Both the position numbers and the translations under genes were made by a program. From the sequence record NC_052652.1: a DNA stretch of 64,000 nucleotides; one strand, given 5' to 3'. Below, piece by piece: positions 14,489 through 34,325 of this stretch. The stretch is from Escherichia phage vB_EcoM_PHB05. Each line of letters opens with the position of its first letter. Within the stretch, counting starts at the first letter, position 1. The notes beneath the pieces are model-generated. The model was given only the letters and a program-made list of their open reading frames with translations. It was not told where the DNA came from and made no database searches.

Positions 14489-17068
14489 TCAGTGACAACT
14501 GGCCCATGAGTTACCAACATCGTAACCAGCAGTGAGAGGTACATTAAGATTGTAATACTCACCAGCTTTATTAACAGCGATAGATGCTAATTCTCCAGCA
14601 CGACTGTAGGCTGTAAACCAACCACCTTTCGGAGATTCATGTACGTTAGCCCAAATCTTGCCAGTACGTTTCTCTTCCTCTTCTTTCCAGGCGTTAACTT
14701 TATCCAAACATTCTTTATCAATTTTCTTTTGTTCTTCTGGATCATCAACTTGAGTCCAACCTAAAGATTCTTTAGAGAACCATTTAAAATGAACCAGATC
14801 ACGAGTTACTTCAAGCTGTGCTTCATCGTGATATGCAATCATTTGTTGAACGAATGACTTATTTTTCCAGTCATCAACAAAAAAGTCAACAGCTAATCCT
14901 TCTTCTTCGATAAGATCGTCGTAGATAACCATTGCTCTTTTTGCACAAATAACACCACCACTCTGGAACAGAGAGTTAAGTATTGCGTGTGCAGATCGTG
15001 TAGGTACTTTCCTACCATCAATACCCAGAATGTATTTCTTACCTGTTTTAACCCAGAAATCATGCAGACGTTCTTTAAGAAGTGCAAGAGGTTTTGCAGC
15101 TTCCCAGAAAGCATCGTATACAAGCTGTCCTGTATACATATCACTACCAATAGTTTTTGCTACTTTTGCAGCTTGAGCACCATAAGTAATACCATACTTA
15201 ACAGATTTAGCAGGGCTTCGTTCAAACTTACGACCAATAGTATCAGAAATACGTCGAGCCATCATTGTATGAACATCATTAGGTTTTTCCAACAACAGAG
15301 CATTACAATATTCGTGTGGTTCCTGCTCGTACCGCCAACAGTAGTGTGATTCTATTTTTGCCTCAAGAGAATCAAAGTCATAACCAATTTGGAAGTATTT
15401 TGGAACTTCTACACCAAATAAGTTACGCATTTCATATCCGTACAGAGATGTTACACGTGGGATATTTGCTACTAACCTATGTTTCATACGAGACGTAGCT
15501 GCATCACACGTTGCAGCAGGAGTTGGTATACGACCATCAGCCCTTACTGCCGCCAGATAACCTTTATCGTAATCCTCTTCATCTTCTTCCCAATCAGCGC
15601 CACCCCCTAGAATAGAGTTTCTACGATGTTTATACGTAAGATACTGCACAATCTGCGTAGCATAAGGAAACTTTTCACCTAGTGCTTCCAAGTTAGGACA
15701 AATATCCTTCTCTTGCCCTTTTGTAAAGGAAGGGTTAGTAAGCACTTTAACACCACGACCTTTAGCTTTAGCAATACGATCTCTTAGTTTCCATTCCAAA
15801 GTTTCTGGTGTGCACTCCAGATGATCACATCTGTCCTGGCAGAAGTTAGATGCTAATGTTTGATCAACATAGTCACGAATAGCTTTCTCCATTTGTGCTT
15901 CATCTTTCTTAATCTTAGTGCCAGATTTAAGAGTGATATCTTTATCTTTATATTCAGATGGACTCCAACCTAAACCAACTAACCAATTTTTAATATGTGT
16001 AGTGTCGTCTAAAGTAGCAGGCACTGTAGGATCACAAATAGGTTCTTCTGCTGGAATAGGTAGTTTAAACTCTTTACCTAATGCAAATAACCACCAACCA
16101 TCTTCTTTTTGTACAAGTTCACCAGAATGTTTCTCTGCAAACTTTATCATGTTACTTGAAGGCTCACCATTCTTTTTAAACTGGAGTTTAGGTGGAATGA
16201 ATGATTTCAAATAACCTTTAGTAGCAGGTTTAGGAGGTAGCACAGGTTCTGCCTCTAAACGACATGCTTCCATTCGAGCATCCAGATCACGAATATTATC
16301 TTCTGCTTGTTTCATATTGAAAGCAAAGCCACGGTGCTCTTGACGTGTAATAATATCAGCTACACGTTGTTCTAAGTTAAATGGTTCAGACCACTTATTA
16401 TAATCACCCCACTCTTCCATCAAATAACGGAACACTGCGGTGTTAGCTTTGTTATCGTAAATACAGTAATACAGCATATCTGCTGCAAATGTTCTAAATC
16501 TTTCAGTTTCAGGAATGTTTTTTCTAAAATCAATTTTAACATCCCCTCCAGCTTTCTTAGATAACTCTGCCAGACTATGACCACCGAAGCGATCAGGGTT
16601 TAGTGTCTTACTTAAGATCATAGTATCACAAATTTCAATGTTACTATTACCCCAAGTATTGTACTTAATACTGTAGTTGAGTTTAAAAAATAATTTAATT
16701 GCCAGTAAGTCGAAGTTAATGATGTTGTGTCCAACTACTTTGGTAATTTTATAGTTTGAATTACCTTTAAATTTACCTGTTCCATTTACAAAATCAGGAA
16801 AATCTTTAAGAGGGAAATGGGTATATTCTAAATGCTCATATTCCTCCAGTCGGTATTCATACTTTCCGTCAGTCTCAATATACGGACGACCATCGAAAAG
16901 ATATTTATCACCATCATGGAAAGCAATAATCTCTCCAGTATCATGACTTTCACACACAATACAGTGCATTGCAAAACTATCTTTTAAACGATATGGACTT
17001 GCCAAGTAATCTACACTTTCGTCATTAAGCAAGTTGTTACTTTCAATGTCGAAAGTAAAAGCTCCCAT
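14489..17068 (-). CDS. DNA polymerase, family A (T7 gp5-like) with 3'-5' exonuclease domain, 859 aa
   Basis: Exo motif FDIESNNL at N-terminus; block TMILSKTLNPDRFGGHSLAELS parallels T7 gp5 TLVLSRLIHSNL...GSHALEAWG; size and Lys/Tyr-rich palm region consistent with Pol I family. Confidence 0.85.
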   Translation of the reverse strand: MGAFTFDIESNNLLNDESVDYLASPYRLKDSFAMHCIVCESHDTGEIIAFHDGDKYLFDGRPYIETDGKYEYRLEEYEHLEYTHFPLKDFPDFVNGTGKFKGNSNYKITKVVGHNIINFDLLAIKLFFKLNYSIKYNTWGNSNIEICDTMILSKTLNPDRFGGHSLAELSKKAGGDVKIDFRKNIPETERFRTFAADMLYYCIYDNKANTAVFRYLMEEWGDYNKWSEPFNLEQRVADIITRQEHRGFAFNMKQAEDNIRDLDARMEACRLEAEPVLPPKPATKGYLKSFIPPKLQFKKNGEPSSNMIKFAEKHSGELVQKEDGWWLFALGKEFKLPIPAEEPICDPTVPATLDDTTHIKNWLVGLGWSPSEYKDKDITLKSGTKIKKDEAQMEKAIRDYVDQTLASNFCQDRCDHLECTPETLEWKLRDRIAKAKGRGVKVLTNPSFTKGQEKDICPNLEALGEKFPYATQIVQYLTYKHRRNSILGGGADWEEDEEDYDKGYLAAVRADGRIPTPAATCDAATSRMKHRLVANIPRVTSLYGYEMRNLFGVEVPKYFQIGYDFDSLEAKIESHYCWRYEQEPHEYCNALLLEKPNDVHTMMARRISDTIGRKFERSPAKSVKYGITYGAQAAKVAKTIGSDMYTGQLVYDAFWEAAKPLALLKERLHDFWVKTGKKYILGIDGRKVPTRSAHAILNSLFQSGGVICAKRAMVIYDDLIEEEGLAVDFFVDDWKNKSFVQQMIAYHDEAQLEVTRDLVHFKWFSKESLGWTQVDDPEEQKKIDKECLDKVNAWKEEEEKRTGKIWANVHESPKGGWFTAYSRAGELASIAVNKAGEYYNLNVPLTAGYDVGNSWASCH

Positions 17069-19349: not shown

Positions 19350-19619
19350 CTAAAATGATTCGTTTGTCTCCATAATATATTGCATTTCCAAATCTTCCAT
19401 ATGTTTCTTAAATTGGTAAACAATTTCCGATGGGGAAATATCTATATCAAAAAGTTCTTTTGTACCAGAATAGAACCTAATACCATCAACAATAAGGCCA
19501 CCATAATAATCCCAATCACTTTCTCGTGAAAAAGGATTAGGTTCTTCATAATAGTAATCTACTTCAACAATAATAGGTTCTTTATTATCTTGTTTATACT
19601 CAAAATCAAAAGTGTTCAT
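19350..19619 (-). CDS. Hypothetical protein, 89 aa
   Basis: Track ORF; acidic/aromatic, no motif recognised. Confidence 0.35.
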   Translation of the reverse strand: MNTFDFEYKQDNKEPIIVEVDYYYEEPNPFSRESDWDYYGGLIVDGIRFYSGTKELFDIDISPSEIVYQFKKHMEDLEMQYIMETNESF

Positions 19620-20563
19620 TATAAATCCTCGATAAGCAGTCTGCGGGTTTCATTTAAATCATCAATATTGTAGTTATCTCTTACATACTTAGCAAGAGCT
19701 AATCCTTTCTCAATACAAACATCAGGAGATTCGATTAAGTATTCTACAATATCTTTCCACTCTTTAACTGAATCAGCAAAGAAGATTAGATCTTTAAATT
19801 CTTCAGTATAGTAGTTCTCTCGTGGAGAACAAACGAGTGGCAAACCTTTAGCACCAGCCTCAAGAATTTTTAAATTACTTTTGGCATTATTAAAATGATT
19901 ATTTACTAATGGAGCTATGGAGATTTGATGACCATCGTATGCTTCCATATAACACTCATAAGGACGAATACCTTCATAAACACAATCTGGTTGAATCTCT
20001 TCTTTAATTTGCAACCATTGAGCACTACTTAACTCTTCGTGATCTCTACGAAATCCACATAACGTTAAATCTTTACCAAAAGTAGGAAGAATTGCTAAAT
20101 CATGTTTATGTGTTTCACTTCCCGCCCAAACCAGTGGGCTTTTAGAATAACGATCTTTAGTAAGAACAAACTGCCCTTCATCAAAAGGTAGTCCGTTAGG
20201 CACAATATGTACATTATCATTGTATTGGCTTAATTCAACCTTTAATGCTGGAGTTGTTGTAGTTACAAGATCGCTTCTTTCAAGGAACCATTTTAGGTCA
20301 TCTCGGATTTGATTTTCAAATAATCCTTCCAACATATGCCCTTCAGGAATAATTAAAGAATCATCCAGATCCATTACCAATTTAAACCCAAGTTGTTTAA
20401 GAGCCAGGAAACCTGGCTTTCCACGAGTTGGTACTCCATTGAACACAAAAATATTATGCTTAGGATTAATGGTCAGTTTGCGTTTATATGGCAAAATGAT
20501 TCTATGAAAATCACATACACTATACCTTTCATGTCCACGTGTGTCAAGAATAATATTAGGCAT
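19619..20563 (-). CDS. Glycosyltransferase-like protein (GT-B fold suspected), paralogue 1, 314 aa
   Basis: Clear paralogy with the adjacent gene (shared blocks DFHRI, DEGQF-LTKDRYS, ISIAPLVNN-FNN-KSNLKILEAGAKGLP); KILEAGAKGLP resembles the GT4 E-x7-E region. Confidence 0.5.
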   Translation of the reverse strand: MPNIILDTRGHERYSVCDFHRIILPYKRKLTINPKHNIFVFNGVPTRGKPGFLALKQLGFKLVMDLDDSLIIPEGHMLEGLFENQIRDDLKWFLERSDLVTTTTPALKVELSQYNDNVHIVPNGLPFDEGQFVLTKDRYSKSPLVWAGSETHKHDLAILPTFGKDLTLCGFRRDHEELSSAQWLQIKEEIQPDCVYEGIRPYECYMEAYDGHQISIAPLVNNHFNNAKSNLKILEAGAKGLPLVCSPRENYYTEEFKDLIFFADSVKEWKDIVEYLIESPDVCIEKGLALAKYVRDNYNIDDLNETRRLLIEDL

Positions 20564-20574
20564 ATGGCTCCTTG

Positions 20575-21549
20575 TTAAAGACTTTCAATAACTTGACGAC
20601 GCAGTTCATTGGCATCTGCAAGATTATAATTAAGACGAACGTGTTCTGCAAGCATCATACCACGATCTTCTGTGTATCTAGGGTTCCTCATTAGCTTGAC
20701 AACTTCATAATGCCAAGATGCTTTAGAATCTGCATAGATAACAGCCTTTGCATCTACCGGATTGAAGTACGGCAGCACAGGAGAACAGATAATAGGAAGA
20801 CCCTTTGCACCTGCTTCCAAAATCTTCAAATTGCTTTTACAGTTGTTGAAGTCATTATCTACCAGAGGAGCAATTGCAATACTGTGACCGTCATACACAG
20901 ACATATACTCACCTAAATTTTTAATAGCTGGTTTATACTGTGCATTTGGAATTTTACGTTTTACTTTAACCCACTCCGCAGTAGTTAGATACTGACTATT
21001 ATTTCCAACAGGTGCAGAAGGATACACTTCATACCCTGCAATTGTCAATAGTGTATCATCAAATGTATTAGCTACAAGAGATAAATCAGGTTCATGGCTT
21101 GCTCCTCCAGCCCAAATAATAGGCGTGTCAGAATAACGGTCTTTTGTCAAAGTAAATTGACCTTCATCGTAAGGTAGTGCGTTTCTAATAACGACAACAT
21201 TACGATTTAAATGACGAATTTTGTAAGCCAGGTATTCTGTTGTTACAGTAACAACATCTGCTAACTTAATCATCTCTACAATAGTCTTTGAGTGATTAGT
21301 AAATACGCCAGCCATATAATGTTCAGGATTAAGCGAATAAAAGTCATCTAAATCAACAATAATCTTAACACCTTGTGCCTTCAGGCGTTTAACTTCGTCT
21401 GATCCACGAGAATACACTCTATTAAAAACTAAAACGTCTTTCTTAGGCTTAAACGTATTTCCCGCAAATGGCATTACAATACGATGGTAATCACAACCAC
21501 TGCCTAACTTATTATCACACTTAAGTACAGGAGTATTAGGATTTACCAT
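20575..21549 (-). CDS. Glycosyltransferase-like protein, paralogue 2 (start at internal ATG with RBS GAGGAGG), 324 aa
   Basis: Paralogue of 19619..20563; track ORF extends to 21588 but the Met at 21549 has a strong RBS and minimises overlap. Confidence 0.5.
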   Translation of the reverse strand: MVNPNTPVLKCDNKLGSGCDYHRIVMPFAGNTFKPKKDVLVFNRVYSRGSDEVKRLKAQGVKIIVDLDDFYSLNPEHYMAGVFTNHSKTIVEMIKLADVVTVTTEYLAYKIRHLNRNVVVIRNALPYDEGQFTLTKDRYSDTPIIWAGGASHEPDLSLVANTFDDTLLTIAGYEVYPSAPVGNNSQYLTTAEWVKVKRKIPNAQYKPAIKNLGEYMSVYDGHSIAIAPLVDNDFNNCKSNLKILEAGAKGLPIICSPVLPYFNPVDAKAVIYADSKASWHYEVVKLMRNPRYTEDRGMMLAEHVRLNYNLADANELRRQVIESL

Positions 21550-22222
21550 ATTTTTGAGCCTCCTCATAAGAGATAAAAGTTTTACCATTGCGAAGATCCT
21601 CCAGTGATTGTTTATATTGTTCCCAGTTTACACCAATCCCCTGTTCTTTCTCTTCTTTTGACAGATTCGCAAAAGGTAAAGGATTATCTCCAAACACATC
21701 GTCAGGATGGATAAACGCCATAATTCGAATAGGACATGGTACGCCGTGAATACCTCGGTTCAAACCTGCCAGTGGAACGCGCTGAATCCACTCTGCATCC
21801 TCATACCCATAGCCGTGGGTGTATGAGCGGAAATAGCCAGCTTTCTCAATAACTGCACGGGAATACATACCAAACTGGCACATGCCTAGTTCCCAAATAA
21901 CCACTTCACCTTCAATACCTTTTACTTTATCTTTAAAGTATTCAGGCATACCAAAGAAATCCCAGCCATTTTCCTTAGCCTGTTTTACAAAATATGTTTC
22001 CCAACCTGTCACAACCGGATAGCAATCATCATCAAAAATAAACCAGTAATCATACCCTTCATCATAAAACTTTTTCATCAGTTCATTACGGGCATATGCA
22101 ACACCTTTTCGTTCCCGATCATACTGTACAACAAAAGTAGCATTAGGATCAGTCACAAGATAATCTTTAAGAGGACGCTTACCTACAGTAATAACACCAA
22201 CACCAATTTTTGTATTTTCCAA
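21536..22222 (-). CDS. Glycosyltransferase, GT-A fold (DxD type), 228 aa
   Basis: DxD motif in YWFIFDDDCYP preceded by hydrophobic strand; GYGYEDAEW downstream; typical small GT-A layout. Confidence 0.5.
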   Translation of the reverse strand: MENTKIGVGVITVGKRPLKDYLVTDPNATFVVQYDRERKGVAYARNELMKKFYDEGYDYWFIFDDDCYPVVTGWETYFVKQAKENGWDFFGMPEYFKDKVKGIEGEVVIWELGMCQFGMYSRAVIEKAGYFRSYTHGYGYEDAEWIQRVPLAGLNRGIHGVPCPIRIMAFIHPDDVFGDNPLPFANLSKEEKEQGIGVNWEQYKQSLEDLRNGKTFISYEEAQKYGKS

Positions 22223-22231
22223 AATAACTCC

Positions 22232-22795
22232 TTAAATAATTTTATTCATGTCTTGACAATGTAAAAGGTGTGAAACAGCTTTTCTAGGATCATCATTACC
22301 TAAACGGTATGTGTGAAATAAATATAACCCACGTAGTAAACCTAGCCTTTTATTGTTAGCGTGTAATGCTTTAGAGAAAATTATATCAAACTGTATTGAT
22401 CTTTCCTCAAAAGGGATTTCATTCCACAGACTCTTACGAAAGAGAAGAAAGAATCCTGCTAAGATAGCATCTGTAGGTACTTCCTCTATTGAGTTTCCCC
22501 ATTCTAGATGTGCTCTTTTTGCAATCTCAATGTGGTGTAATATATTTGGATCTTCACTTCTTTCATTATTAAATAATTGATATGTTGATCCCAATCTATT
22601 ACAAGATGCACCAAGAACATCAAAATCAGGATTTGAACGGACTATTGATTCCAACCAAGCAGGTTGTTCTGGAAGAAGAAACATTGTATCAATGTCTCTT
22701 AGGCAAATCCAACTATCTTCTGGTAAGACACTTATTGTGTCATTGATACCTTTTCCAATATCTCCAGAAAGATAGGGAGTTATGTGAAATATCAT
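22232..22795 (-). CDS. Hypothetical protein, possibly a further glycosyltransferase-like enzyme, 187 aa
   Basis: Track ORF adjacent to the GT cluster; acidic motif ICLRDIDTMF could be a DxD-like site (weak). Confidence 0.3.
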   Translation of the reverse strand: MIFHITPYLSGDIGKGINDTISVLPEDSWICLRDIDTMFLLPEQPAWLESIVRSNPDFDVLGASCNRLGSTYQLFNNERSEDPNILHHIEIAKRAHLEWGNSIEEVPTDAILAGFFLLFRKSLWNEIPFEERSIQFDIIFSKALHANNKRLGLLRGLYLFHTYRLGNDDPRKAVSHLLHCQDMNKII

Positions 22796-23543: not shown

Positions 23544-24053
23544 TTAGCGATAGAATTGATGTTCTTTGTAGCGGTACACTAGAACCATATCTTTTTCCCA
23601 GTGTGCTCTTATTGTAGATTTTTTAAAGTATAATGCTCCTTTTGTAATATCTAATGCAATTCGTAGTTCTGGAAAATGGTTATCGAGATAAAGTAGACGT
23701 TCTGCTATAGCCTTAGCTTCCTTCCACTTATCGTGTTCCATAACGTTGAATGTCTTCGTGTAAGAGAATTGTCCTTTCTGAAACAAAACTTCTTTTATAG
23801 TATCAGGGAAATATGAATCTCTAGCCCTATTCAATACTACATTACCAACAGCAGACATACCGCGCTTTCCTTGATTACGACTTTCTGCATAGATTGCACA
23901 AGCTAATAGATTTTCTTTACTATCACGCTTTGTACACTTGTGAACTACTTTAGCAGTTTTTACGTTTGCAGCTTCGGCTTGCGCCACAACAGGTGTAAAT
24001 GTAAAAGCAGTTAAGGATAGTAACGCAATTGCGACAAAGGTTTTTATTGACAA
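23544..24053 (-). CDS. Secreted cell-wall hydrolase (SleB/Hydrolase_2-like), candidate endolysin, 169 aa
   Basis: N-terminal signal peptide (MSIKTFVAIALLSLTAFTFTPVVAQA); motif LACAIYAESRNQ...GMSAVGNVVLNR typical of SleB-family cell wall hydrolases. Confidence 0.55.
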   Translation of the reverse strand: MSIKTFVAIALLSLTAFTFTPVVAQAEAANVKTAKVVHKCTKRDSKENLLACAIYAESRNQGKRGMSAVGNVVLNRARDSYFPDTIKEVLFQKGQFSYTKTFNVMEHDKWKEAKAIAERLLYLDNHFPELRIALDITKGALYFKKSTIRAHWEKDMVLVYRYKEHQFYR

Positions 24054-24813: not shown

Positions 24814-25410
24814 TTACTCGAACCAATCGTCGCCAGCGCCGAACGCTTTAACTACATCGTAAATGTCAAGCCCAGCTTTACCCACACCATACGCTTTCAG
24901 TTTCCATTCACTATCTTCCCGTACCAGGGAGGCAACGTGGCAAATGGTGTTACCTGCAAGTTCTGGAGCCAAGAAGTCAAAGTCCAGCAGTTCAACATTA
25001 CGTTCATCATCGAAGATTTTAAGGAAACCTTCGGTAGCGTGACCAAGGCGTTTCTTACCCGTTTCGTCATCAATAGTAATTACAAATGCAATTTCCTGTG
25101 CTTCAGCAGAGATATTATCCAGTGTAACATCAATCTGCTCCATCTGTCCTACACCGTCACGAACATCTTCACCTGCAAAAGTAGAACGTTCAGGATCAAA
25201 TTTCTGCGCGTAGCACACCAGGTGACGAGGAGACAACAGTTCCGGCAGACCAGATGCATTGTGTCGGCAAATCAGAGCACTAACATCCAGATCCAGTTTT
25301 TCGTTAGATTTCCAAGAGAATTCCAGACGAATGCGTTTCAGTGCTGGTGCAATCTTTTTCAGAGAAACTTTTTCACTAGAACCTTTTTTCAGGGAAATTT
25401 TCTGAGTCAT
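24814..25410 (-). CDS. terD: TerD-domain stress protein (tellurium-resistance TerD family), 198 aa
   Basis: N-terminal ISLKKGSSEKVSLKK strand pair, LDLDVSALICRHN block and acidic Ca-binding-like segment (FAGEDVRDGVGQMEQIDVTLD, ITIDDETG) as in TerD/TerE proteins. Confidence 0.65.
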   Translation of the reverse strand: MTQKISLKKGSSEKVSLKKIAPALKRIRLEFSWKSNEKLDLDVSALICRHNASGLPELLSPRHLVCYAQKFDPERSTFAGEDVRDGVGQMEQIDVTLDNISAEAQEIAFVITIDDETGKKRLGHATEGFLKIFDDERNVELLDFDFLAPELAGNTICHVASLVREDSEWKLKAYGVGKAGLDIYDVVKAFGAGDDWFE

Positions 25411-25482
25411 AATTTATTATCTCCTTTGTTGTTAATTTACGTTGTCTATTTTACTAATCTTTTCTACAAAGTCAAGCGTTTT

Positions 25483-26277
25483 TTACGCTTTTGCTCCGAA
25501 TTTTTTAACCCACTCACCAAACTCTTCGGATAACAGCTTATCGTAAAGTTCTTCATCAGACAAGGACAAATCTGCAATACCGATAAAATCAACATTATCG
25601 TATTCTTTTGCCAAGTCTTTCAGGAATTTAAAGTTTGCATTACCTACACCAACCATAAACCAGTAAACAGGCGTATTGCGGTGTTTGTTCAGTAAGCTAC
25701 GTACTGCTGAAGTATCCATGTTCTCCCCGTCAGTTTGGAAGAAAATCATTGCAGGAGTACGATCAACTTGTGCATCAGTATCTACAACCTGTTCTACAAC
25801 AGTACGTGTTACTTCTACAAGTTCTTTTTTACCAGTTAGTTTAGCAAGGAAACCCTTAGCCGGGACTTCTTCATACTCAACGACTTCGCGTGTAATATTT
25901 TTCATAGGTACACTACCGAAGTATGTATCATAGATCTCTTGCATTACTGGAGCATAAGCAGTACCACCGTTGATGCAAACATTAGACATGCAAGAGCCGA
26001 CATAATCATCATACACACCAGCCGTTGCAGGAGGCAGTTCAAAAGAAGAACTATTGAAAGCCCACATGTCAATCTGTGCATTATCATCAAACTTCATACC
26101 AAACGGCAGCAGTTTACCTACAAAATCACTAACAGTGCCATCACGATACAGCTCACACATACTACCCGAAATATCTAAGGCGCTACCGACACGAAGAACA
26201 ACATCGTTAATCTTTTTCTTACGCAGAGATACAGTAAGAGTTTCTTGACGTTTTTTAAGACTGATTTTATTGGACAT
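25483..26277 (-). CDS. von Willebrand factor A (vWA) domain protein with TerD-like N-terminal strand (TerY/TerF-like), 264 aa
   Basis: MIDAS motif VGSALDISGSM (DxSxS); N-terminus ISLKKRQETLTVSLRK mirrors the TerD N-terminus. Confidence 0.55.
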   Translation of the reverse strand: MSNKISLKKRQETLTVSLRKKKINDVVLRVGSALDISGSMCELYRDGTVSDFVGKLLPFGMKFDDNAQIDMWAFNSSSFELPPATAGVYDDYVGSCMSNVCINGGTAYAPVMQEIYDTYFGSVPMKNITREVVEYEEVPAKGFLAKLTGKKELVEVTRTVVEQVVDTDAQVDRTPAMIFFQTDGENMDTSAVRSLLNKHRNTPVYWFMVGVGNANFKFLKDLAKEYDNVDFIGIADLSLSDEELYDKLLSEEFGEWVKKFGAKA

Positions 26278-26278
26278 A

Positions 26279-26548
26279 TTATTTCTCCTTTCTGAGTGTA
26301 ATGTTAGTAACTTCTAAATCCACTTCTACTACTTCTGTATCATATAAAATACAGTTAAGTTGACCTCTTTGTGAACCGTTCAGACACATTGCTTGGTTTG
26401 TATTAACCTTAATAAACACTAAGTTTCTGAACGTATCTAAACCAGATTCTTGATAGGCAACATAATATACAAATGTATCACCTGCGTCAAGTTCTCCAAA
26501 ACATTTAGGTTCATCTGATTTGTCGTCTTTGATATTAAATTTAAGCAC
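26279..26548 (-). CDS. Hypothetical small protein, 89 aa
   Basis: Track ORF. Confidence 0.3.
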   Translation of the reverse strand: MLKFNIKDDKSDEPKCFGELDAGDTFVYYVAYQESGLDTFRNLVFIKVNTNQAMCLNGSQRGQLNCILYDTEVVEVDLEVTNITLRKEK

Positions 26549-27104
26549 TGTCTTCTCCTTTACCTGCTCTCCAGCCTAAATAGAAAGCCTCTCTGGTGAT
26601 CTTTTGCAACTCGTTTAAAGAGATAGTTACAACTAAATCATCTTCAATTTCTAGCTTTGAGTCTTCTTCTGTCTCAATGCAAGTATTATGCACTTTGTGG
26701 TAAGGATTGTCAACACGTTTAAATTTATTATTTTCAGTGCTGAAGAAGCAATCTGGATCTTCTTCTCCATCACCCCAGCCCTGGTTAGGGTCTTCTTCAG
26801 ATCTTTCTGTTGGGATCTCCCCTGTAAAGTGCTCTTCTAATACCATAGCGATACCATCCCCAGGATCGGAAGAGAACATCAAATTACAAACTTCTTCCCA
26901 AGGCATAGACCACTTGAATCTTTTACGATTGCCATGTTTATCTTCTTCGTTAGAGAAAACACTACCATAGCTATCATAATTGCCATACATCTCTTCAACA
27001 ACTTTACCACCTTTCAAAAGAAATAGGTAGCAAGGAGAGCCATCGAAAGAGGTAGAAAGAGCAGCATTACCAGACTCTTTGCACAAGAAACTAAAACACC
27101 CCAT
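26541..27104 (-). CDS. Hypothetical acidic protein, 187 aa, C-terminal motif shared with the next gene
   Basis: C-terminal LNELQKITREAFYLGWRAGKGEDS resembles N-terminal LTREELQTIMEDAFIDGWKQGQESD of 27104..27304. Confidence 0.35.
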   Translation of the reverse strand: MGCFSFLCKESGNAALSTSFDGSPCYLFLLKGGKVVEEMYGNYDSYGSVFSNEEDKHGNRKRFKWSMPWEEVCNLMFSSDPGDGIAMVLEEHFTGEIPTERSEEDPNQGWGDGEEDPDCFFSTENNKFKRVDNPYHKVHNTCIETEEDSKLEIEDDLVVTISLNELQKITREAFYLGWRAGKGEDSA

Positions 27105-27304
27105 TATACACCAGCCTTAAGATCAACTAAAGCCAAAGTTGTTTCAGAATGTGTTTGCTCGTCTACAGGTGCAGTCATATGATAATACAAAAAGTCTTCG
27201 GCATCATACCAATCTGACTCTTGACCTTGTTTCCAACCATCAATGAAAGCATCTTCCATAATGGTTTGTAATTCTTCACGAGTTAAGTGAATATCTTTAT
27301 TCAT
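27104..27304 (-). CDS. Hypothetical small protein sharing the AF-x-GW motif, 66 aa
   Basis: See previous entry; translationally coupled. Confidence 0.3.
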   Translation of the reverse strand: MNKDIHLTREELQTIMEDAFIDGWKQGQESDWYDAEDFLYYHMTAPVDEQTHSETTLALVDLKAGV

Positions 27305-27537
27305 TACACATTCTCCTCTTTTACCAATTCCATCGTTGAACTATCAAAACCATCTTTAGAAGAATAGGTATAGACAGAACGTAGTTCTCGCAGGACAGTA
27401 AACACATTAGGATCATCTAACCAAGCATCCTGGAGGAGAACATAACGATCTTCATTGTCGTACTGGACAGCGATCATAGAACCAGACAGTTTGTAAATTT
27501 TAATATTCATAATATATTTCTCCTTAAAGTAGACCAC
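27304..27537 (-). CDS. Hypothetical small protein, 77 aa
   Basis: Track ORF. Confidence 0.3.
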   Translation of the reverse strand: MVYFKEKYIMNIKIYKLSGSMIAVQYDNEDRYVLLQDAWLDDPNVFTVLRELRSVYTYSSKDGFDSSTMELVKEENV

Positions 27538-28627
27538 GTTTAACAGTTTGAATCATACCATCTTCAAGAGATTGCACTTCTTGAATGTAATCAATACGAG
27601 CAGCACGGGCTTCAGTGTTGATCCGATTAGTTTCTTCCAACATTTTAACTAAGTTTTCTTGATCGCGACGTAATGTTTCAATATCCAATACTTGACGATT
27701 AGCAAGTTGCGTAGCTTCAATTTGGTTTTGTGCAGCCAGATCACTACCCATTGCAATAGCAGCATTAAACTCATTCAGTACATTGTTCTGTGTATCGGCT
27801 GCTTTCTTCTGGCGTAGACTTTCAATATACATAGAAAAGTTTGCAGAGTAAGCAGGAATAACATTATTCACAATATTACGGGCTGATCGCATCAAACTTG
27901 CAGATACTTTCTGCATACTTTGTACACGTGGCCCCATCTGAACACACAGTAAACGCAAGGCTTTCAGGTCTGCAATACGAATTTCAAGCAGATCCATAGT
28001 ATCACGAGTACGTTGACGCTCTTCTACTTCATTTTCAGGTAGTGTATTAAGGCGAACTTCTTCTTTTTCATAAGTAGCTGTTAGAAGCTCTATATCCCTG
28101 TTTAAGCTAAGAGCATATTTTGCAATAGCCTCTTCTAAACGTTGCAGATATCGTAAAGAATCTTCTTCTTTTTTCAAGTCTGTTTGGAGTGTCTTTACCA
28201 AACCTTCAATACGATTATTGATGGTGTCAAATTCTCCAAACAAATCTTCTTTCATACCTAATACTTTCTTAACTAACTTACCTAAGCCTTTAGATTGTTT
28301 AATAGAGTTAGGATCAAGTTGCTTTGCTTGCTTAATAAGTGCAGTTAAACGTTCACTCATTTCATCTCCCTGAGATGAACGCTGGTGTTTAAGCACTTCA
28401 GCATTAAGGTTACGAAGAGTAAGTCCTGCATCAGCACCAACTTGTTCAATCTCTTCACGAGACATTGGAGGCAGCATTTGTACAGGTCGTGCAACAGCAG
28501 GGGCATATACAGGGCTTGCATCCATAGCACTTGGAGCAAACAAAGACTTACTTTTTTCTGTTGTTGCCGTGAATACACTCATTTCAGACGGTTTGCTTTT
28601 TACGGCACTGATAAAAGGACTGGACAT
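27524..28627 (-). CDS. telA: TelA-like toxic-anion-resistance family protein (coiled-coil), 367 aa
   Basis: Length, predicted all-helical coiled-coil architecture with E/R/L-rich heptads and position next to TerD/TerC genes match TelA/KlaA family; assignment by resemblance, not verified. Confidence 0.5.
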   Translation of the reverse strand: MSSPFISAVKSKPSEMSVFTATTEKSKSLFAPSAMDASPVYAPAVARPVQMLPPMSREEIEQVGADAGLTLRNLNAEVLKHQRSSQGDEMSERLTALIKQAKQLDPNSIKQSKGLGKLVKKVLGMKEDLFGEFDTINNRIEGLVKTLQTDLKKEEDSLRYLQRLEEAIAKYALSLNRDIELLTATYEKEEVRLNTLPENEVEERQRTRDTMDLLEIRIADLKALRLLCVQMGPRVQSMQKVSASLMRSARNIVNNVIPAYSANFSMYIESLRQKKAADTQNNVLNEFNAAIAMGSDLAAQNQIEATQLANRQVLDIETLRRDQENLVKMLEETNRINTEARAARIDYIQEVQSLEDGMIQTVKRGLL

Positions 28628-28695
28628 TCAATTTCCTCCATATTCTTTAGTAGATGGTGATACCTCTGTACCACCATCATAACACAAATTAAGTA

Positions 28696-29547
28696 TTAAA
28701 CAAACATATCTAAATAATTTGTAGTAATAAATGCTCCATCTGCTTCCAGATTAACATAACCAGTAGCATTAGTGGTTAAGAAATCCAGATCGAAGGACTC
28801 TTTAACACCCCGTACCTCAACACGAGAGATATCGAATACAGGTAGTGTAACAGCCTCTTCGTGCAATACCGTACCTTTGTAGGTTGCCTTAATGATAAAC
28901 TTGATATTACCCGTTCCCGCATCATACAAAACACTTTCAAACCCTTTGAGAGTATACTTATCACCAGAAGTGAAGTGCAAAGTTGCTTTGTTTACAGTAC
29001 GTTTTTTACGAGGAGTTCCTTTCACACGTTTATGATCACTACGTTTTTTGTATTTAGGAGTGAATACAAACGATACACTCTCAAGAAAGGTATCAACATC
29101 AAGGATTTCAATATCCTCTGTTGCAGCAAATTTTGAAGTCGTTGCATCAAAATGCTTTCCCCTGCGATCATACATAAAGATATCAAACCGATCTTCTAAA
29201 TCAAACAAATTATGTATCTTAATTTCAGAATGCTTGCACATTGCAGCAACCTTAAACTCTTCAAAACGTGGGTGTTCTACAAGCTCTTCAAGTTTTACAC
29301 CAAAGACAGTATATTGTTTCGAAGTTTTTTCTGGCGTTGGCATTACAGAAGCATAATCACCGATTGCGCTTTTAAAGCAAAATTGTTCTTGACCTGTATT
29401 TTTACCAACGAATTTACAGTATTCGTCATCGTGCATACTTTCTTTGGTAGTACCAACAAACTCAAAACCATCCTTATTCTTCTCAAGAATTTCTTGATTA
29501 AAGATCCAACCTTCCAGGCGATACACTTTACCAACTTCTAGTTTCAT
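28696..29547 (-). CDS. Hypothetical protein, 283 aa
   Basis: Track ORF between TelA-like and lipoprotein genes; basic KR-rich linker; no motif recognised. Confidence 0.4.
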   Translation of the reverse strand: MKLEVGKVYRLEGWIFNQEILEKNKDGFEFVGTTKESMHDDEYCKFVGKNTGQEQFCFKSAIGDYASVMPTPEKTSKQYTVFGVKLEELVEHPRFEEFKVAAMCKHSEIKIHNLFDLEDRFDIFMYDRRGKHFDATTSKFAATEDIEILDVDTFLESVSFVFTPKYKKRSDHKRVKGTPRKKRTVNKATLHFTSGDKYTLKGFESVLYDAGTGNIKFIIKATYKGTVLHEEAVTLPVFDISRVEVRGVKESFDLDFLTTNATGYVNLEADGAFITTNYLDMFV

Positions 29548-29582
29548 CTGTTCCTCCTTCTTATTTAATCTGTATTAAATTA

Positions 29583-30188
29583 TTAACGGCGACGTGAGCT
29601 ACTAAAACTACGTTTCGACGAAGAATAACTTTTCGAAGACTTACTATAAGAGCTAATAGGGCTTGAGTAAGACTTACGAGCAGAGTAATCACTATTCACT
29701 TTTGTTGTTGATGGGCGTGAATACGTTTGTACACTTTGCTGCTTAATTGTGTTTTGTTTAGTTGTTGTATATGTATTCCCTTGTTTATCATAAAAACTAT
29801 GCTTTTGTGTTGTATATGATTTACTGTTAGTTGTAGGAGCAGCGTTGTTATTAATAATTGTTGTATTGCTACCGCCATCTCTATAACCACCACCGCCACT
29901 ATTACCACTCAACATATGACCAAGAAGCATACCTGTAGCAAATTCACCTACACCAGAAGAACCACTACCGCCTCCTTGCACAACAACTGTTGAAGGCTGT
30001 GCAGGTGCTGCTTGAACAACTTGAGGTGCAGGTTGATTTACATATTGTTCATCTACCATCTGATTTGGTGTTTGTTGGTAACGTTGGTTTTGTACATTTT
30101 CAGAATCATCACAACCTACCAGCAATGCACTGCCTAAAACAACTGCAACAATAAAAGATTTAATGTTTTTCATTTGTAACCCTCTCAT
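29583..30188 (-). CDS. Lipoprotein with glycine-zipper segment and S/Y/Q/N-rich low-complexity tail, 201 aa
   Basis: Signal peptide plus lipobox (ALLVGC); GMLLGHMLSG glycine zipper; extreme S/Y/T/K-rich C-terminus. Confidence 0.55.
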   Translation of the reverse strand: MRGLQMKNIKSFIVAVVLGSALLVGCDDSENVQNQRYQQTPNQMVDEQYVNQPAPQVVQAAPAQPSTVVVQGGGSGSSGVGEFATGMLLGHMLSGNSGGGGYRDGGSNTTIINNNAAPTTNSKSYTTQKHSFYDKQGNTYTTTKQNTIKQQSVQTYSRPSTTKVNSDYSARKSYSSPISSYSKSSKSYSSSKRSFSSSRRR

Positions 30189-30366
30189 TTAAAGTCTCAA
30201 CACAATTTTTAAAATCTCTAGAGAAACAATACATCTGTTCTCCGTTCCTGTTGATAGTAATTGTATGGTTATCAATATATGTTGTCAATATAAAAATCAA
30301 ACAAAATAGCCCTAAAGCAAAACAAATATTTTCAAACAGAATCCAAAGAACACGTAAAACCACCAT
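30160..30366 (-). CDS. Small membrane protein, 68 aa
   Basis: Single hydrophobic helix (ICFALGLFCLIFILTTYI). Confidence 0.3.
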   Translation of the reverse strand: MVVLRVLWILFENICFALGLFCLIFILTTYIDNHTITINRNGEQMYCFSRDFKNCVETLNERVTNEKH

Positions 30367-30382
30367 CAGATCACCTCAACAA

Positions 30383-30398
30383 AGCCCCCGAAGGGGCT
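30383..30398 (-). terminator. Terminator-like hairpin (AGCCCC CGAA GGGGCT)
   Basis: GC stem with tetraloop between the TerC-like gene and downstream genes. Confidence 0.4.
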
Positions 30399-30405
30399 TA
30401 ATGAA

Positions 30406-31383
30406 TTAAGCAACAGCCTGGTCTTCTTTTTCAGGGAAGATTAAACTTGCAATAACACCCAGCCCCAGAGTACCTAACACAATATACATACTGATCGTCG
30501 GATCAATGTGTGCTGGCAGGAAACTCACTTTTGCGTGCAGAGTTTCTGCAAATGGGTGATACATCAGTTTTACACCCACAAATACCAGGACTACGATAAC
30601 TGCTTTCTCCAGATGAACCAAATATTTCAGTGCAACACTAAGGACAAAGAACAGAGCACGTAGACCTAAAATTGCACACAGCATTGAAGAAAATACAAGC
30701 AGAGGTTCTTGTGTCACTGCAATTACTGCTGGAACAGAATCTACTGCAAAGATTACGTCAACCATTTCCATTACAAACACACAAACCAATGCAGGAGTTG
30801 CTACACGAACACCATTTTTGATTGTGAAGAACTTCTCACCATCCATCTGATCAGATACAGGGAACAGCTTACGAACAATGCGAGTAGCCCAGTGTTTAGA
30901 GTAATCAACTTCTGCGTCATTATCTCCAGCGAATACCATTTTAGCTGCACAGAAAAGGATGATCGCACCGAAGAAGATATTAACATACCAGCCCAAACTC
31001 AACAAGTAAGTGCCTACTGCTACAAACACACCTCGGAAGACAATCGCACCTGCAATACCCCAAAGTAGAATCTTGTGCTGCAAGTGTGTGCTTTTAATAC
31101 CAAAACTTGCGAATACTGCCACAAATACTACTAAGTTATCTACAGAAAGAGATTTCTCCAACACATACCCACTCAAGAACAAGCTCGCAAAATCAGCACC
31201 GTGTTGGAAGTATACAAAACCATAGTAGGCTAATGATACCCCAATCCAGAAAATTGACCAGCCAATTGCAGATTTAAATGAAATTTCTTTGTTTTCTCTG
31301 TGTCCAAAGAAATCAATACAAATCGACAAGACTAAAATACCCACTAAAACAACCACATCAATAATTGGGAAACCCAGTTGCAT
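30406..31383 (-). CDS. terC: TerC-family integral membrane protein, 325 aa
   Basis: Multiple TM helices and hallmark motif LEKSLSVDNLVVFVAVFASFG of the TerC/Alx family. Confidence 0.7.
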   Translation of the reverse strand: MQLGFPIIDVVVLVGILVLSICIDFFGHRENKEISFKSAIGWSIFWIGVSLAYYGFVYFQHGADFASLFLSGYVLEKSLSVDNLVVFVAVFASFGIKSTHLQHKILLWGIAGAIVFRGVFVAVGTYLLSLGWYVNIFFGAIILFCAAKMVFAGDNDAEVDYSKHWATRIVRKLFPVSDQMDGEKFFTIKNGVRVATPALVCVFVMEMVDVIFAVDSVPAVIAVTQEPLLVFSSMLCAILGLRALFFVLSVALKYLVHLEKAVIVVLVFVGVKLMYHPFAETLHAKVSFLPAHIDPTISMYIVLGTLGLGVIASLIFPEKEDQAVA

Positions 31384-31401
31384 TCTTTTCTCCTCTTTAA
31401 T

Positions 31402-31420
31402 GCGGAGGACAATCCTCCGC
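31402..31420 (-). terminator. Hairpin (GCGGAGGA CAAT CCTCCGC) upstream of the TerC-like gene, possible terminator of the preceding transcript
   Basis: 7-bp stem in the 77-nt intergenic gap. Confidence 0.35.
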
Positions 31421-31460
31421 TCTATGTCGTATACTATAAACTGTTTTTAAAGAAAGTCAA

Positions 31461-31709
31461 CTAGTTCAGTTCTGTAATTTTAAGTTTATCTTCTTTGTTA
31501 ATGATAGGGAAAGCTACAGCATCACCTACATCATCAATAAAGCAAACAGCAAGACCACCTTCCACTTTGCTAACCTGACCATTAAAGGCGTGATACGGGG
31601 CAGGAACAATATCTCCATCTTCAAGGAGAATAGCCTCATAAACCTTACCAACAGTACAATCACGAGTGTTTATAAATTTTTCAAGCACTTCAACATTTAC
31701 TTTACGCAT
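31461..31709 (-). CDS. Hypothetical small protein, 82 aa
   Basis: Track ORF. Confidence 0.35.
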   Translation of the reverse strand: MRKVNVEVLEKFINTRDCTVGKVYEAILLEDGDIVPAPYHAFNGQVSKVEGGLAVCFIDDVGDAVAFPIINKEDKLKITELN

Positions 31710-31724
31710 ATAAAAAATCCTCTC

Positions 31725-31931
31725 TTATTTGTTAGATTGAAAGATACCACGAAGTACCGCAAGAATGAACGTCACACAGACTACACTCCAAAACGTTACA
31801 GGAACATGATGCCAGTCTAAACCGATAATGTCAATCATATAGTTGTATGCTAAAAGCAGTAGCCAACTAGGGATTAACACAATCAAGAACACAACAATAA
31901 AACAACCTAATACTGCTAAAACACCTGCCAT
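31725..31931 (-). CDS. Small membrane protein, 68 aa
   Basis: Two hydrophobic helices (LAVLGCFIVVFLIVLIPSWLLLLAY; VTFWSVVCVTFILAVL). Confidence 0.35.
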   Translation of the reverse strand: MAGVLAVLGCFIVVFLIVLIPSWLLLLAYNYMIDIIGLDWHHVPVTFWSVVCVTFILAVLRGIFQSNK

Positions 31932-31940
31932 ACTTTCTCC

Positions 31941-34156: not shown

Positions 34157-34325
34157 TTTTAATCCTCCGTCCAAAAGAATATCATCTGCTTAATTTTATT
34201 AATCTCTTGACGTAGTAACTTTCCAGCATGTGCTTGATCTTTAAGATTTGCAGCAAGAGTTTCAAGCTCCGTTAGTTTTTCCTGGATAGCTTTATATTCA
34301 TCATCTGTAAGCATTTTCTTCCCCT

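What the first reader, a model, noticed from the sequence alone, without database searches (positions are those of the whole stretch)
19619..22795. Cluster of glycosyltransferase-like genes including a tandem duplicated pair, adjacent to replication genes
Two adjacent paralogous proteins (314 and 324 aa, sharing DEGQF-LTKDRYS and KILEAGAKGLP blocks) are followed by a DxD-type GT-A-like protein (FIFDDDCYP) and a further possible GT-like ORF. Sitting between the primase-helicase and a cell-wall hydrolase in a lytic phage, the cluster could glycosylate phage DNA bases, virion proteins or host surface polysaccharide. The duplication suggests two sugars or two acceptor specificities.
Basis: partly seen in the sequence, partly recalled or inferred. 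Interest (0 to 1): 0.6.

Follow-up and report, generated by a model that had tools for sequence, protein, structure and literature searches.

The report
Four-glycosyltransferase operon of phi92-like coliphage
Four adjacent genes in this phi92-like E. coli phage are real sugar-transferring enzymes, already annotated as such in public genomes; their target is unknown, published data argue it is not the phage DNA, and the best guess is phage particle proteins.

Summary
Window 19619-22795 (minus strand) holds four tightly packed, translationally coupled genes. GT1 (314 aa) and GT2 (324 aa) are 41% identical paralogues with a GT-B, GT4-like fold. GT3 (228 aa) has a GT-A fold with an invariant DDD motif. 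GT4 (187 aa) is a small GT-A-like domain, identified through homologues that score as Pfam GT2.

The window is a Justusliebigvirus (phi92-like phage), 98-99.5% identical to deposited genomes in which these genes are already called glycosyltransferases. The four-gene block is syntenic in Phapecoctavirus and under purifying selection. These phages also carry a dTDP-rhamnose pathway, about 70 kb away and outside the window.

DNA glycosylation is unlikely. These phages are exceptionally sensitive to restriction-modification systems and to BREX, and are not hit by the modification-dependent nuclease BrxU. Their thymidylate synthase is ThyX type, not the ThyA type that makes hydroxylated pyrimidines.

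Context in other phages and bacteria favours a protein acceptor: packaging and structural gene modules, mycobacteriophage glycosyltransferase homologues, and adhesin-linked bacterial homologues. My best guess is virion proteins (about 0.4). Remodelling of host envelope glycans is the main rival. Nothing here is experimentally settled. This is a known, annotated feature with an open function, and the interest is moderate.

The parts
19619..20563 (-). GT1: 314-aa GT-B (GT4-like) glycosyltransferase, the diverged paralogue
20575..21549 (-). GT2: 324-aa GT-B glycosyltransferase, the ancestral-like paralogue (an alternative upstream ATG at 21588 would give 337 aa)
   Evidence: It is 41% identical to GT1, E=6e-83. 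PHROG 7162 E=3.7e-149. A GAGGAGG ribosome-binding site precedes the ATG at 21549. It is 66% identical to the single GT-B of Klebsiella phage phi1_175008 and 43% to the B. dolosa homologue; GT1 scores 38% and 35% against the same two.
21536..22222 (-). GT3: 228-aa GT-A (GT2-like) glycosyltransferase with an invariant DDD motif and a YG-x-ED motif
22232..22795 (-). GT4: 187-aa small GT-A-like glycosyltransferase domain (D34-x-D36 motif)
   Evidence: It has no direct Pfam or PDB sequence hit. PHROG 14179 E=5.5e-113. A profile search found 1179 cluster representatives. Many are fused to TOD1_MUCI70 or GT2 domains. In P0127 and P0122 the homologous region itself passes the Pfam GT2 thresholds. It is at least 99% identical in 53 phage records in the tblastn search.
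19350..19619 (-). 89-aa acidic ORF, translationally coupled to GT1 (TAATG overlap) and co-conserved with the GT-B gene; function unknown and membership in the module uncertain
   Evidence: PHROG 4240, unknown function, E=8.4e-35. The same position is occupied in phAPEC8 and in Klebsiella phage phi1_175008, where the ORF is 47% identical, E=2.6e-30. Junction sequence.

Best explanation
The region is a conserved operon of four soluble, cytoplasmic glycosyltransferases: two GT-B paralogues and two GT-A-type enzymes. Together they probably build a short oligosaccharide on a non-DNA acceptor. Donors would be host NDP-sugars and, where present, dTDP-L-rhamnose from the phage's own RmlABCD genes elsewhere in the genome. 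The acceptor I think most likely is one or more phage structural proteins (capsid, tail, or fibre/spike proteins), modified in the cytoplasm before or during assembly. The result would be a glycosylated virion, as in some mycobacteriophages and giant viruses.

Shown: the enzyme folds and families, the operon structure, conservation and purifying selection, and the absence of membrane segments.

Inferred: that the four act on one acceptor, the donor sugars, and the acceptor itself.

Confidence that these are active glycosyltransferases working on something other than bulk DNA is about 0.8. Confidence in the virion-protein acceptor is about 0.4, and that is the figure given below.
For: Enzyme identity.

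Operon: gaps of at most 11 nt or overlaps, a Shine-Dalgarno sequence before each start, and no minus-strand terminator inside the block.

Conservation: the same order GT4-GT3-GT2-GT1-small ORF-primase occurs in phAPEC8. Between genera pN is 0.16-0.25 while pS is saturated at 0.66-0.84. Within the genus there are 41 synonymous and 9 non-synonymous codon differences.

Against DNA as target: phi92-like phages are 'exceptionally susceptible' to RM systems (PMC8594841). phiPau and phiPATM are restricted about 10^7-fold by BREX and are not among the BrxU-sensitive phages; BrxU cleaves 5mC, 5hmC and glc-5hmC DNA (PMC8565348; both are Justusliebigvirus records). The thymidylate synthase is ThyX (PF02511), not a ThyA homologue. 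GT1, GT3 and GT4 are acidic, with pI 5.2-5.6.

For a virion or protein acceptor:
- A GT3-like plus GT-B-like pair, in the same order, sits immediately upstream of small terminase, portal and capsid in an unrelated ~36 kb phage contig (hhalign probability 98%).
- GT-B or GT4-like homologues lie in or beside packaging and structural modules in Streptomyces phage Zuko, L008 and L010.
- Outside its own subfamily, GT3's nearest phage relatives are glycosyltransferases of about 535 mycobacteriophage records of clusters F and C. Cluster F phages Che8 and Rita are reported to carry capsid glycans (PMC11256854).
- The only two bacterial contexts examined place the GT-B next to invasin/intimin-type or pertactin autotransporter adhesin genes, which suggests protein glycosylation. 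phi92-like fibres include an intimin-like domain (annotation).

A general argument, which is inference: in a fast lytic cycle only newly made macromolecules can be modified stoichiometrically. Those are phage DNA or phage proteins, and DNA is disfavoured.
Against: No experiment on glycosylation of phi92-like virions was found in the searchable literature. In this phage the operon sits in the early replication and nucleotide-metabolism block, not next to structural genes. Direct BLASTP to the experimentally implicated Che8 gp108-110 finds nothing; the mycobacteriophage link runs through a different cluster-F glycosyltransferase (Fruitloop gp99), whose role I could not verify. The gene-context arguments are associations in distant relatives at 26-38% identity. 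The rml link is loose: ESCO37 lacks rmlA/B and Eryne has a fused rmlB-rmlA, yet both keep the glycosyltransferases. The adjacent Ter-type cluster and a secreted cell-wall hydrolase point instead to envelope functions.
Confidence: 0.4

Rival explanations
1. Host envelope glycan remodelling. The four enzymes act at the cytoplasmic face of the inner membrane on lipid-linked intermediates (LPS core, O-antigen, ECA, colanic acid or the NGR glycan). This would alter the surface of the infected cell, block superinfection, or stop progeny sticking to debris.
Against: There are no membrane anchors, flippase, polymerase or ligase genes (annotations). In a virulent phage with a short cycle, pre-existing surface glycans would stay unmodified, so masking would be slow; validated cases I know of are temperate phages. 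Adjacency to the Ter genes is conserved synteny, not proof of a shared function.
Confidence: 0.25
2. DNA base glycosylation, as in T-even, RB69 or TET-associated systems. The enzymes would add sugars, perhaps rhamnose, to a hydroxylated base in phage DNA to evade nucleases.
Against: The phage is RM-hypersensitive, BREX-sensitive and not BrxU-sensitive. The thymidylate synthase is ThyX, not a ThyA-type hydroxylase or hydroxymethylase. The TAGT hit is below the gathering score and covers only the generic Rossmann/DxD part, profile positions 37-104 of 205. No TET/JBP domain was found in the proteins scanned near the methyltransferase. Generic GT4 enzymes outrank the DNA glucosyltransferases structurally. 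Three of the four enzymes are acidic. Rare, sequence-specific modification is not excluded.
Confidence: 0.08
3. Another cytoplasmic acceptor: a host protein, an RNA (for example a tRNA base), or a small molecule or nucleotide-like metabolite, possibly the predicted product of the neighbouring Ter-linked PRTase/HAD enzymes. Glycosylation would serve host takeover or anti-defence.
For: The enzymes are soluble and cytoplasmic. GT1's top structural hits include small-molecule glycosyltransferases: sucrose-phosphate synthase, BshA, TreT and GlgM. PRTase_3, HAD and Macro genes lie on the same strand a few kb upstream. The bacterial homologues next to adhesin genes show the family can be tied to specific proteins.
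Against: No specific partner or precedent was identified. Four glycosyltransferases plus a dedicated rhamnose pathway imply a sizeable glycan and high flux, which is unusual for a signalling metabolite. The association with Ter genes is not seen in the unrelated phage contigs that carry these glycosyltransferases.
Confidence: 0.15

Closest known systems
Mycobacteriophage virion glycosylation genes (cluster F Che8 gp108-110 and related cluster F/C glycosyltransferases)
   Same: They are phage-encoded sets of 2-3 glycosyltransferases acting on a non-DNA target. GT3 is homologous to the N-terminal GT-A domain of cluster-F glycosyltransferases such as Fruitloop gp99 (tblastn E about 1e-7; PHROG 1579 E=5.4e-11). 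That gene occupies the same right-end locus as the Che8 glycosyltransferase genes.
   Different: There is no detectable similarity to Che8 gp108-110 themselves. The host is Gram-negative, the phage is a large virulent myophage, and the operon lies in the replication block. It includes two GT-B enzymes and is accompanied elsewhere by a dTDP-rhamnose pathway. Virion glycosylation has not been shown for it.
T4 alpha- and beta-glucosyltransferases and the RB69/DLP3 DNA arabinosyltransferases
   Different: This phage has no ThyA-type enzyme to create a hydroxylated pyrimidine. Published data show its DNA is readily restricted. Structural similarity is no better than to generic GT4 enzymes.
Giant-virus capsid glycosylation machinery (chlorovirus PBCV-1 A064R; mimivirus R655/R699)
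   Different: Here the enzymes are separate small proteins in a bacteriophage. The similarity is at fold level only, and the acceptor is unverified.
Bacterial GT4/GT2 enzymes of polysaccharide and glycoconjugate synthesis (PglA/PglH, WaaG, PimA, HepE, GlfT2, TarP, RmlT) and prophage O-antigen-modifying glycosyltransferases
   Same: They share the folds and motifs and give the best structural matches. They also show the cluster-like arrangement of several glycosyltransferases with an NDP-sugar pathway.
   Different: This operon has no membrane components, flippase or polymerase. It is encoded by a virulent phage. The GT-B N-terminal domain carries its own invariant D-x-DD, H76 and H152/D155 signature, which I could not match to a characterised subfamily.

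Membership tests
GT-B fold, GT4-like glycosyltransferases (Pfam Glyco_trans_1_2 / Glycos_transf_1 clan), for GT1 and GT2 | Two Rossmann-like domains with an inter-domain cleft | tested here: met
GT-B fold, GT4-like glycosyltransferases (Pfam Glyco_trans_1_2 / Glycos_transf_1 clan), for GT1 and GT2 | Pfam model score above the curated gathering score | tested here: inconclusive
   GT1 scores 26.8 bits on PF13524, above the cut-off of 25. GT2 scores only 14.7-18.1 bits, below cut-off. The profile search against PDB gives only weak C-terminal matches, MshA at E=0.006.
GT-B fold, GT4-like glycosyltransferases (Pfam Glyco_trans_1_2 / Glycos_transf_1 clan), for GT1 and GT2 | C-terminal donor-binding E-x7-E type motif | tested here: inconclusive
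   The second Glu is invariant (E235 in ...KSNLKILEAGA...). The first position is not Glu; invariant K228, S229 and K232 are present instead.
GT-A fold, GT2-like glycosyltransferases, for GT3 | Single Rossmann-like domain with a DxD metal- and donor-binding motif | tested here: met
GT-A fold, GT2-like glycosyltransferases, for GT4 | Homology to recognised GT2 domains, plus a DxD motif | tested here: met
   GT4 has no direct Pfam hit. Profile homologues P0127 (region 17-164, PF13641, E=7.7e-11) and P0122 (422-490, PF00535) pass GT2 thresholds in the homologous region. D34 and D36 are invariant.
TET-associated glycosyltransferase (Pfam TAGT, PF20691), for GT3 | Score above the gathering score across the domain | tested here: not met
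   The score is 25.5 bits against a cut-off of 27.5. Only profile positions 37-104 of 205 are matched.
TET-associated glycosyltransferase (Pfam TAGT, PF20691), for GT3 | A neighbouring TET/JBP dioxygenase and C5-methyltransferase that supply 5hmC | tested here: inconclusive
   A C5-methyltransferase exists about 60 kb away in the relative EmilieFrey. No TET/JBP domain was found in the 10 proteins scanned near it, and none is annotated. The whole genome was not scanned by HMM.
Phage DNA glycosyltransferase systems (T4 AGT/BGT; RB69/DLP3 arabinosyltransferases) | A ThyA-homologue dCMP/dUMP hydroxymethylase or 5-hydroxylase that provides the acceptor hydroxyl | tested here: not met
   The only annotated thymidylate synthase in the relative EmilieFrey is ThyX type, with the RHR...S..SSR motif and PF02511 at E=4.2e-9. 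The criterion comes from PMC13326640.
Phage DNA glycosyltransferase systems (T4 AGT/BGT; RB69/DLP3 arabinosyltransferases) | Virion DNA refractory to restriction and containing glycosylated bases | not testable with these tools
   Published phenotypes argue against it: RM hypersensitivity (PMC8594841), and BREX sensitivity without BrxU sensitivity (PMC8565348). No nucleoside analysis was found.
Phage virion-glycosylation systems (mycobacteriophage type) | Homology to glycosyltransferases of phages with glycosylated virions | tested here: inconclusive
   GT3 hits about 535 mycobacteriophage records from clusters F and C, E about 1e-7. It has no BLASTP match to Che8 gp108-110.
Phage virion-glycosylation systems (mycobacteriophage type) | Glycans covalently attached to capsid or tail proteins | not testable with these tools
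   This needs glycostaining and mass spectrometry of purified virions. No report was found.
dTDP-L-rhamnose-dependent glycosylation | Co-occurrence with a complete RmlABCD pathway | tested here: inconclusive
   rmlB, A, C and D are present in the relative EmilieFrey at 116-119 kb, outside the window. Identity-band counts match at genus level: RmlA 53 and 73 records, GT1 52 and 74. ESCO37 lacks rmlA/B and Eryne has a fused rmlB-rmlA, yet both keep the glycosyltransferases. At most 2 Klebsiella-named records carry RmlA, against 10 with the GT-B.

The most novel reading that the evidence does not exclude
phi92-like and phAPEC8-like coliphages may decorate their virions (capsid, tail, or their many fibres and spikes) with a rhamnose-containing oligosaccharide built by this four-enzyme operon. 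To my knowledge that would be the first glycosylated virion in a phage of Enterobacteriaceae. A further speculation follows from the bacterial homologues that sit beside autotransporter or invasin adhesin genes: the GT-B family may be a dedicated protein glycosyltransferase for adhesin-like proteins, shared between bacterial adhesins and phage fibres.
Probability: 0.3. Interest if true: 0.7.

Novelty: already known. Interest (0 to 1): 0.4.

Why it matters
Justusliebigvirus and Phapecoctavirus phages have very broad host ranges and are being characterised as phage-therapy candidates. They spend four glycosyltransferase genes, plus a four-gene rhamnose pathway, on a product nobody has identified. 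Their DNA behaves as unmodified.

If the product is a virion glycan, it would affect antibody recognition, stability and pharmacokinetics of therapeutic phages. It would also extend virion glycosylation from actinophages to coliphages.

If the product is a host-surface modification, it would be a rare example of receptor remodelling by a virulent phage.

Either way, the question can be answered with simple experiments on phages that are already in public collections (BASEL Bas60-62, the Durham collection).

Tried and rejected
- Sequence-level PDB searches with family profiles gave only weak matches for GT1 (MshA, E=0.006) and nothing meaningful for GT3 or GT4.
- NCBIfam gave nothing for any of the four.
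- hhalign of the GT3 family against the GT4 family found no relationship, probability 0.3%. The two GT-A-type genes are therefore not a second duplication.
- BLASTP of all four against Che8 gp108-110 found nothing, so I do not claim orthology to the experimentally studied Che8 enzymes.
- The Foldseek search of GT3 against viral models returned unnamed phage proteins and giant-virus GT2/GT25 proteins. No named DNA glycosyltransferase appeared, and the search did not discriminate between hypotheses.
- The promoter and terminator scan was uninformative inside the block. Promoter-like hits are only slightly above the shuffled expectation (43 against 32±5), and there is no minus-strand terminator.
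- I considered a functional link to the adjacent Ter/PRTase/HAD genes and kept it only as a minor rival. The glycosyltransferases occur without Ter genes in the unrelated phage contigs examined.
- I considered EarP-like EF-P rhamnosylation and tRNA-queuosine glycosylation, from memory, and dropped them for lack of any supporting hit.
- Three papers could not be read because they are not held: Schwarzer 2012 on phi92, Kelly 2023 on the Durham phages, and Freeman 2023 on Che8 glycosylation.
Full report
**What is there.** The window region 19619-22795 carries four consecutive minus-strand ORFs:
- GT1, 19619-20563, 314 aa
- GT2, 20575-21549, 324 aa (337 aa from an upstream ATG at 21588)
- GT3, 21536-22222, 228 aa, TTG start
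- GT4, 22232-22795, 187 aa

The junctions show a tight, translationally coupled operon. AAGGAG precedes the TTG of GT3. GAGGAGG precedes the 324-aa start of GT2, which overlaps the end of GT3 by 14 nt. AAGGAG precedes GT1. GT1's stop overlaps the ATG of a conserved 89-aa acidic ORF (TAATG). No minus-strand terminator-like site lies inside the block.

**Where it comes from.** Megablast places the region in the genus Justusliebigvirus (phi92-like myophages, Stephanstirmvirinae). Fifty-five records match at 90-99.5% identity, and 51 of them cover at least 80% of the query. In RefSeq and several GenBank records the four genes are already annotated 'glycosyltransferase'. In the BASEL phage EmilieFrey the two paralogues are called 'putative disaccharide synthase'. 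The feature is therefore not new as an annotation.

**Are they glycosyltransferases?** Yes, all four.
- The GT-B family alignment shows its own invariant set: R21, D-x-DD at positions 65-68, H76, H152/D155, and the ...FN..KS.LK.LE.GA... block.
- GT4 has no direct Pfam or PDB hit. An exhaustive profile search found 1179 cluster representatives. Many are fused to TOD1_MUCI70 or GT2 domains, and in one protein examined also to a methyltransferase domain. In two of them the GT4-like region itself passes Pfam GT2 thresholds. GT4 is therefore a small GT-A-type domain.
- GT3 and GT4 are not detectably related to each other.
- None of the four has a hydrophobic segment, so they are soluble cytoplasmic enzymes.

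**Conservation.**
- The order hydrolase, three small ORFs, GT4, GT3, GT2, GT1, small ORF, primase is identical in phAPEC8, genus Phapecoctavirus.
- Between the two genera, synonymous sites are saturated (pS 0.66-0.84) while pN is 0.16-0.25. This is comparable to the primase-helicase.
- Within the genus, 41 synonymous and 9 non-synonymous codon changes separate the window from EmilieFrey.
- The duplication is old. Klebsiella relatives such as phi1_175008 have only GT4 plus one GT-B. That GT-B is the orthologue of GT2 (66% identity, against 38% to GT1). GT2 is also the copy closer to the bacterial homologues.
- Another Klebsiella phage, KP13-16, has GT3 next to its GT-B. The number of glycosyltransferases thus varies among relatives.

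**The sugar supply.** Phi92-like phages and phapecoctaviruses carry a complete dTDP-rhamnose pathway (PMC7552041). In EmilieFrey, rmlB, A, C and D lie at 116.0-119.3 kb. That is about 70 kb from the glycosyltransferases and outside this window. At genus level the two modules co-occur: RmlA is found in 53 records at ≥95% identity and 73 at 60-80%, and GT1 in 52 and 74. The link is not obligatory. ESCO37 lacks rmlA/B (PMC10269720) but keeps GT3 and GT4. Eryne has rmlB and rmlA fused into one ORF but keeps the intact operon. At most 2 Klebsiella-named records carry RmlA, against 10 with the GT-B. The host rfb/rff genes may substitute, or other donors may be used.

The evidence is against it.
- Maffei et al. 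2021 tested the phi92-like BASEL phages against six RM systems. They found them 'exceptionally susceptible', 'despite a putative dTDP glycosylation machinery' (PMC8594841).
- Picton et al. 2021 found phiPau and phiPATM restricted about 10^7-fold by BREX, and not among the phages sensitive to BrxU. BrxU cleaves 5mC, 5hmC and glucosyl-5hmC DNA (PMC8565348). Records named Paula and vB_Eco_PATM are Justusliebigvirus, and Paula's Durham origin is stated in PMC12210895. Equating PATM with phiPATM is my inference.
- Known glycosylated pyrimidines need a ThyA-homologue hydroxymethylase or 5-hydroxylase (PMC13326640). The only annotated thymidylate synthase here is ThyX type.
- GT3's hit to the TET-associated glycosyltransferase model is below threshold and covers only the generic N-terminal half. 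No TET/JBP domain turned up in the proteins I scanned.
- Three of the four enzymes are acidic.
- A rare, sequence-specific modification cannot be excluded, because a C5-methyltransferase exists in the genome.

**What else could the target be?** Two lines of context compete.

For a protein or virion acceptor:
- An unrelated ~36 kb phage contig carries a GT3 homologue (hhalign probability 98%, E=8e-14) and a GT-B homologue. They are adjacent, in the same order, and lie immediately upstream of small terminase, terminase, portal, protease and capsid.
- Homologues sit beside or inside packaging and structural modules in Streptomyces phage Zuko (with UDP-glucose dehydrogenase), L008 and L010.
- Outside its own subfamily, GT3's phage relatives are overwhelmingly mycobacteriophage glycosyltransferases: 535 records from clusters F and C, for example the N-terminal domain of Fruitloop gp99. 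Cluster F phages Che8 and Rita are reported to have glycosylated capsids (PMC11256854). The Che8 enzymes themselves do not match.
- The two bacterial homologues examined lie next to an invasin/intimin-type gene and a pertactin autotransporter gene.

For a host-envelope acceptor:
- Many structural neighbours act on lipid-linked glycans.
- These phages read surface glycans.
- The operon lies just downstream of a phage Ter-type cluster (TerD, vWA-TerF, TelA, TerC, Macro, PRTase_3, HAD) and a secreted cell-wall hydrolase. Iyer et al. 2021 interpret both Ter systems and glycosyltransferase clusters in phages as anti-superinfection devices (PMC7824862).

Other phage contigs place these glycosyltransferases in large sugar-modification islands next to replication genes. 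That placement is neutral between the two readings.

**Verdict.** I favour virion-protein glycosylation, at about 0.4. In a fast lytic cycle only newly made polymers can be modified stoichiometrically, and DNA is disfavoured. The recurrent association with packaging and structural genes, and with adhesin genes, also points to proteins. Envelope remodelling is the main rival (about 0.25). Another cytoplasmic acceptor scores about 0.15 and DNA about 0.08. None of these is tested, and I found no paper reporting an experiment on these genes.

The finding is a correct reading of an already annotated, already discussed gene cluster whose function is still open. That makes it of moderate interest and easy to test in phages that are publicly available.

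Noticed in passing
window 24814-34174 (minus strand): A phage-encoded Ter-type cluster lies directly upstream of the glycosyltransferase block. It comprises TerD (24814-25410), vWA-TerF-like (25483-26277), TelA (27524-28627), TerC (30406-31383), a Macro-domain protein (31941-32774), a ComF-like PRTase_3 (32650-33507) and a HAD-like protein (33500-34174). This matches the Ter 'nucleoside-like metabolite' system of Anantharaman et al. 2012, which Iyer et al. 2021 read as anti-superinfection when it occurs in phages.
   Followed up: partly
window 23544-24053 (minus strand): The SleB-type cell-wall hydrolase (PF07486) has an N-terminal Sec-like signal peptide. It is distinct from the endolysin annotated elsewhere in related genomes (EmilieFrey bas61_0208). 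Its role is unclear: a second lysin, or a periplasmic remodelling enzyme.
   Followed up: partly
L013 3086-4396 (phage Eryne); ESCO37 (OM386659): There are natural rml-defective relatives. In Eryne, rmlB and rmlA are fused into one 436-aa ORF. ESCO37 is reported to lack rmlA and rmlB. Both retain the glycosyltransferases (Eryne all four, ESCO37 at least GT3 and GT4), so the phage rhamnose pathway is dispensable for growth in the laboratory.
   Followed up: partly
L007 3025-8440 (Burkholderia dolosa); L015 100-5501 (metagenome): The only two bacterial homologues of the GT-B examined (35-45% identical to GT1 and GT2) sit next to adhesin genes. One neighbour is an invasin/intimin-type inverse autotransporter and the other a pertactin-type autotransporter. 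This hints at a dedicated adhesin glycosyltransferase family.
   Followed up: partly
L016 7216-8984: A ~36 kb siphophage-like contig carries a GT3-like plus GT-B-like gene pair in the same order as in the window. The pair lies immediately upstream of small terminase, terminase, portal and capsid. The pair therefore looks like a mobile two-gene module.
   Followed up: yes
window 19350-19619 (minus strand): An 89-aa, very acidic ORF (PHROG 4240, unknown function) is translationally coupled to GT1. It is conserved after the GT-B gene in phAPEC8 and in Klebsiella phage phi1_175008. It is a possible partner or regulator of the glycosyltransferases.
   Followed up: partly
public records hit: Several GenBank records are 76-99% identical to these coliphages in this region, or carry protein homologues of that identity. 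They are named 'Campylobacter phage A150/C3/B15/A110a', 'Acinetobacter phage vB_AbaM_ABPW7' and 'Serratia phage KKP_3264'. The host labels look doubtful: contaminating coliphages, or unusually broad host range.
   Followed up: no
window 1-64000 (composition profile): GC skew is positive over about 1-10 kb, negative over about 10-48 kb, and positive again after about 48 kb. The first switch coincides with the change from plus-strand tail and baseplate genes to the long minus-strand replication and metabolism block that contains the glycosyltransferases.
   Followed up: no
L002 14405-17719 (phage PD06), compared with window 14489-17068: The DNA polymerase gene is 3315 nt in PD06 but 2580 nt (859 aa) in the window and in EmilieFrey. 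This suggests an insertion, perhaps an intein or mobile element, in some members of the genus.
   Followed up: no
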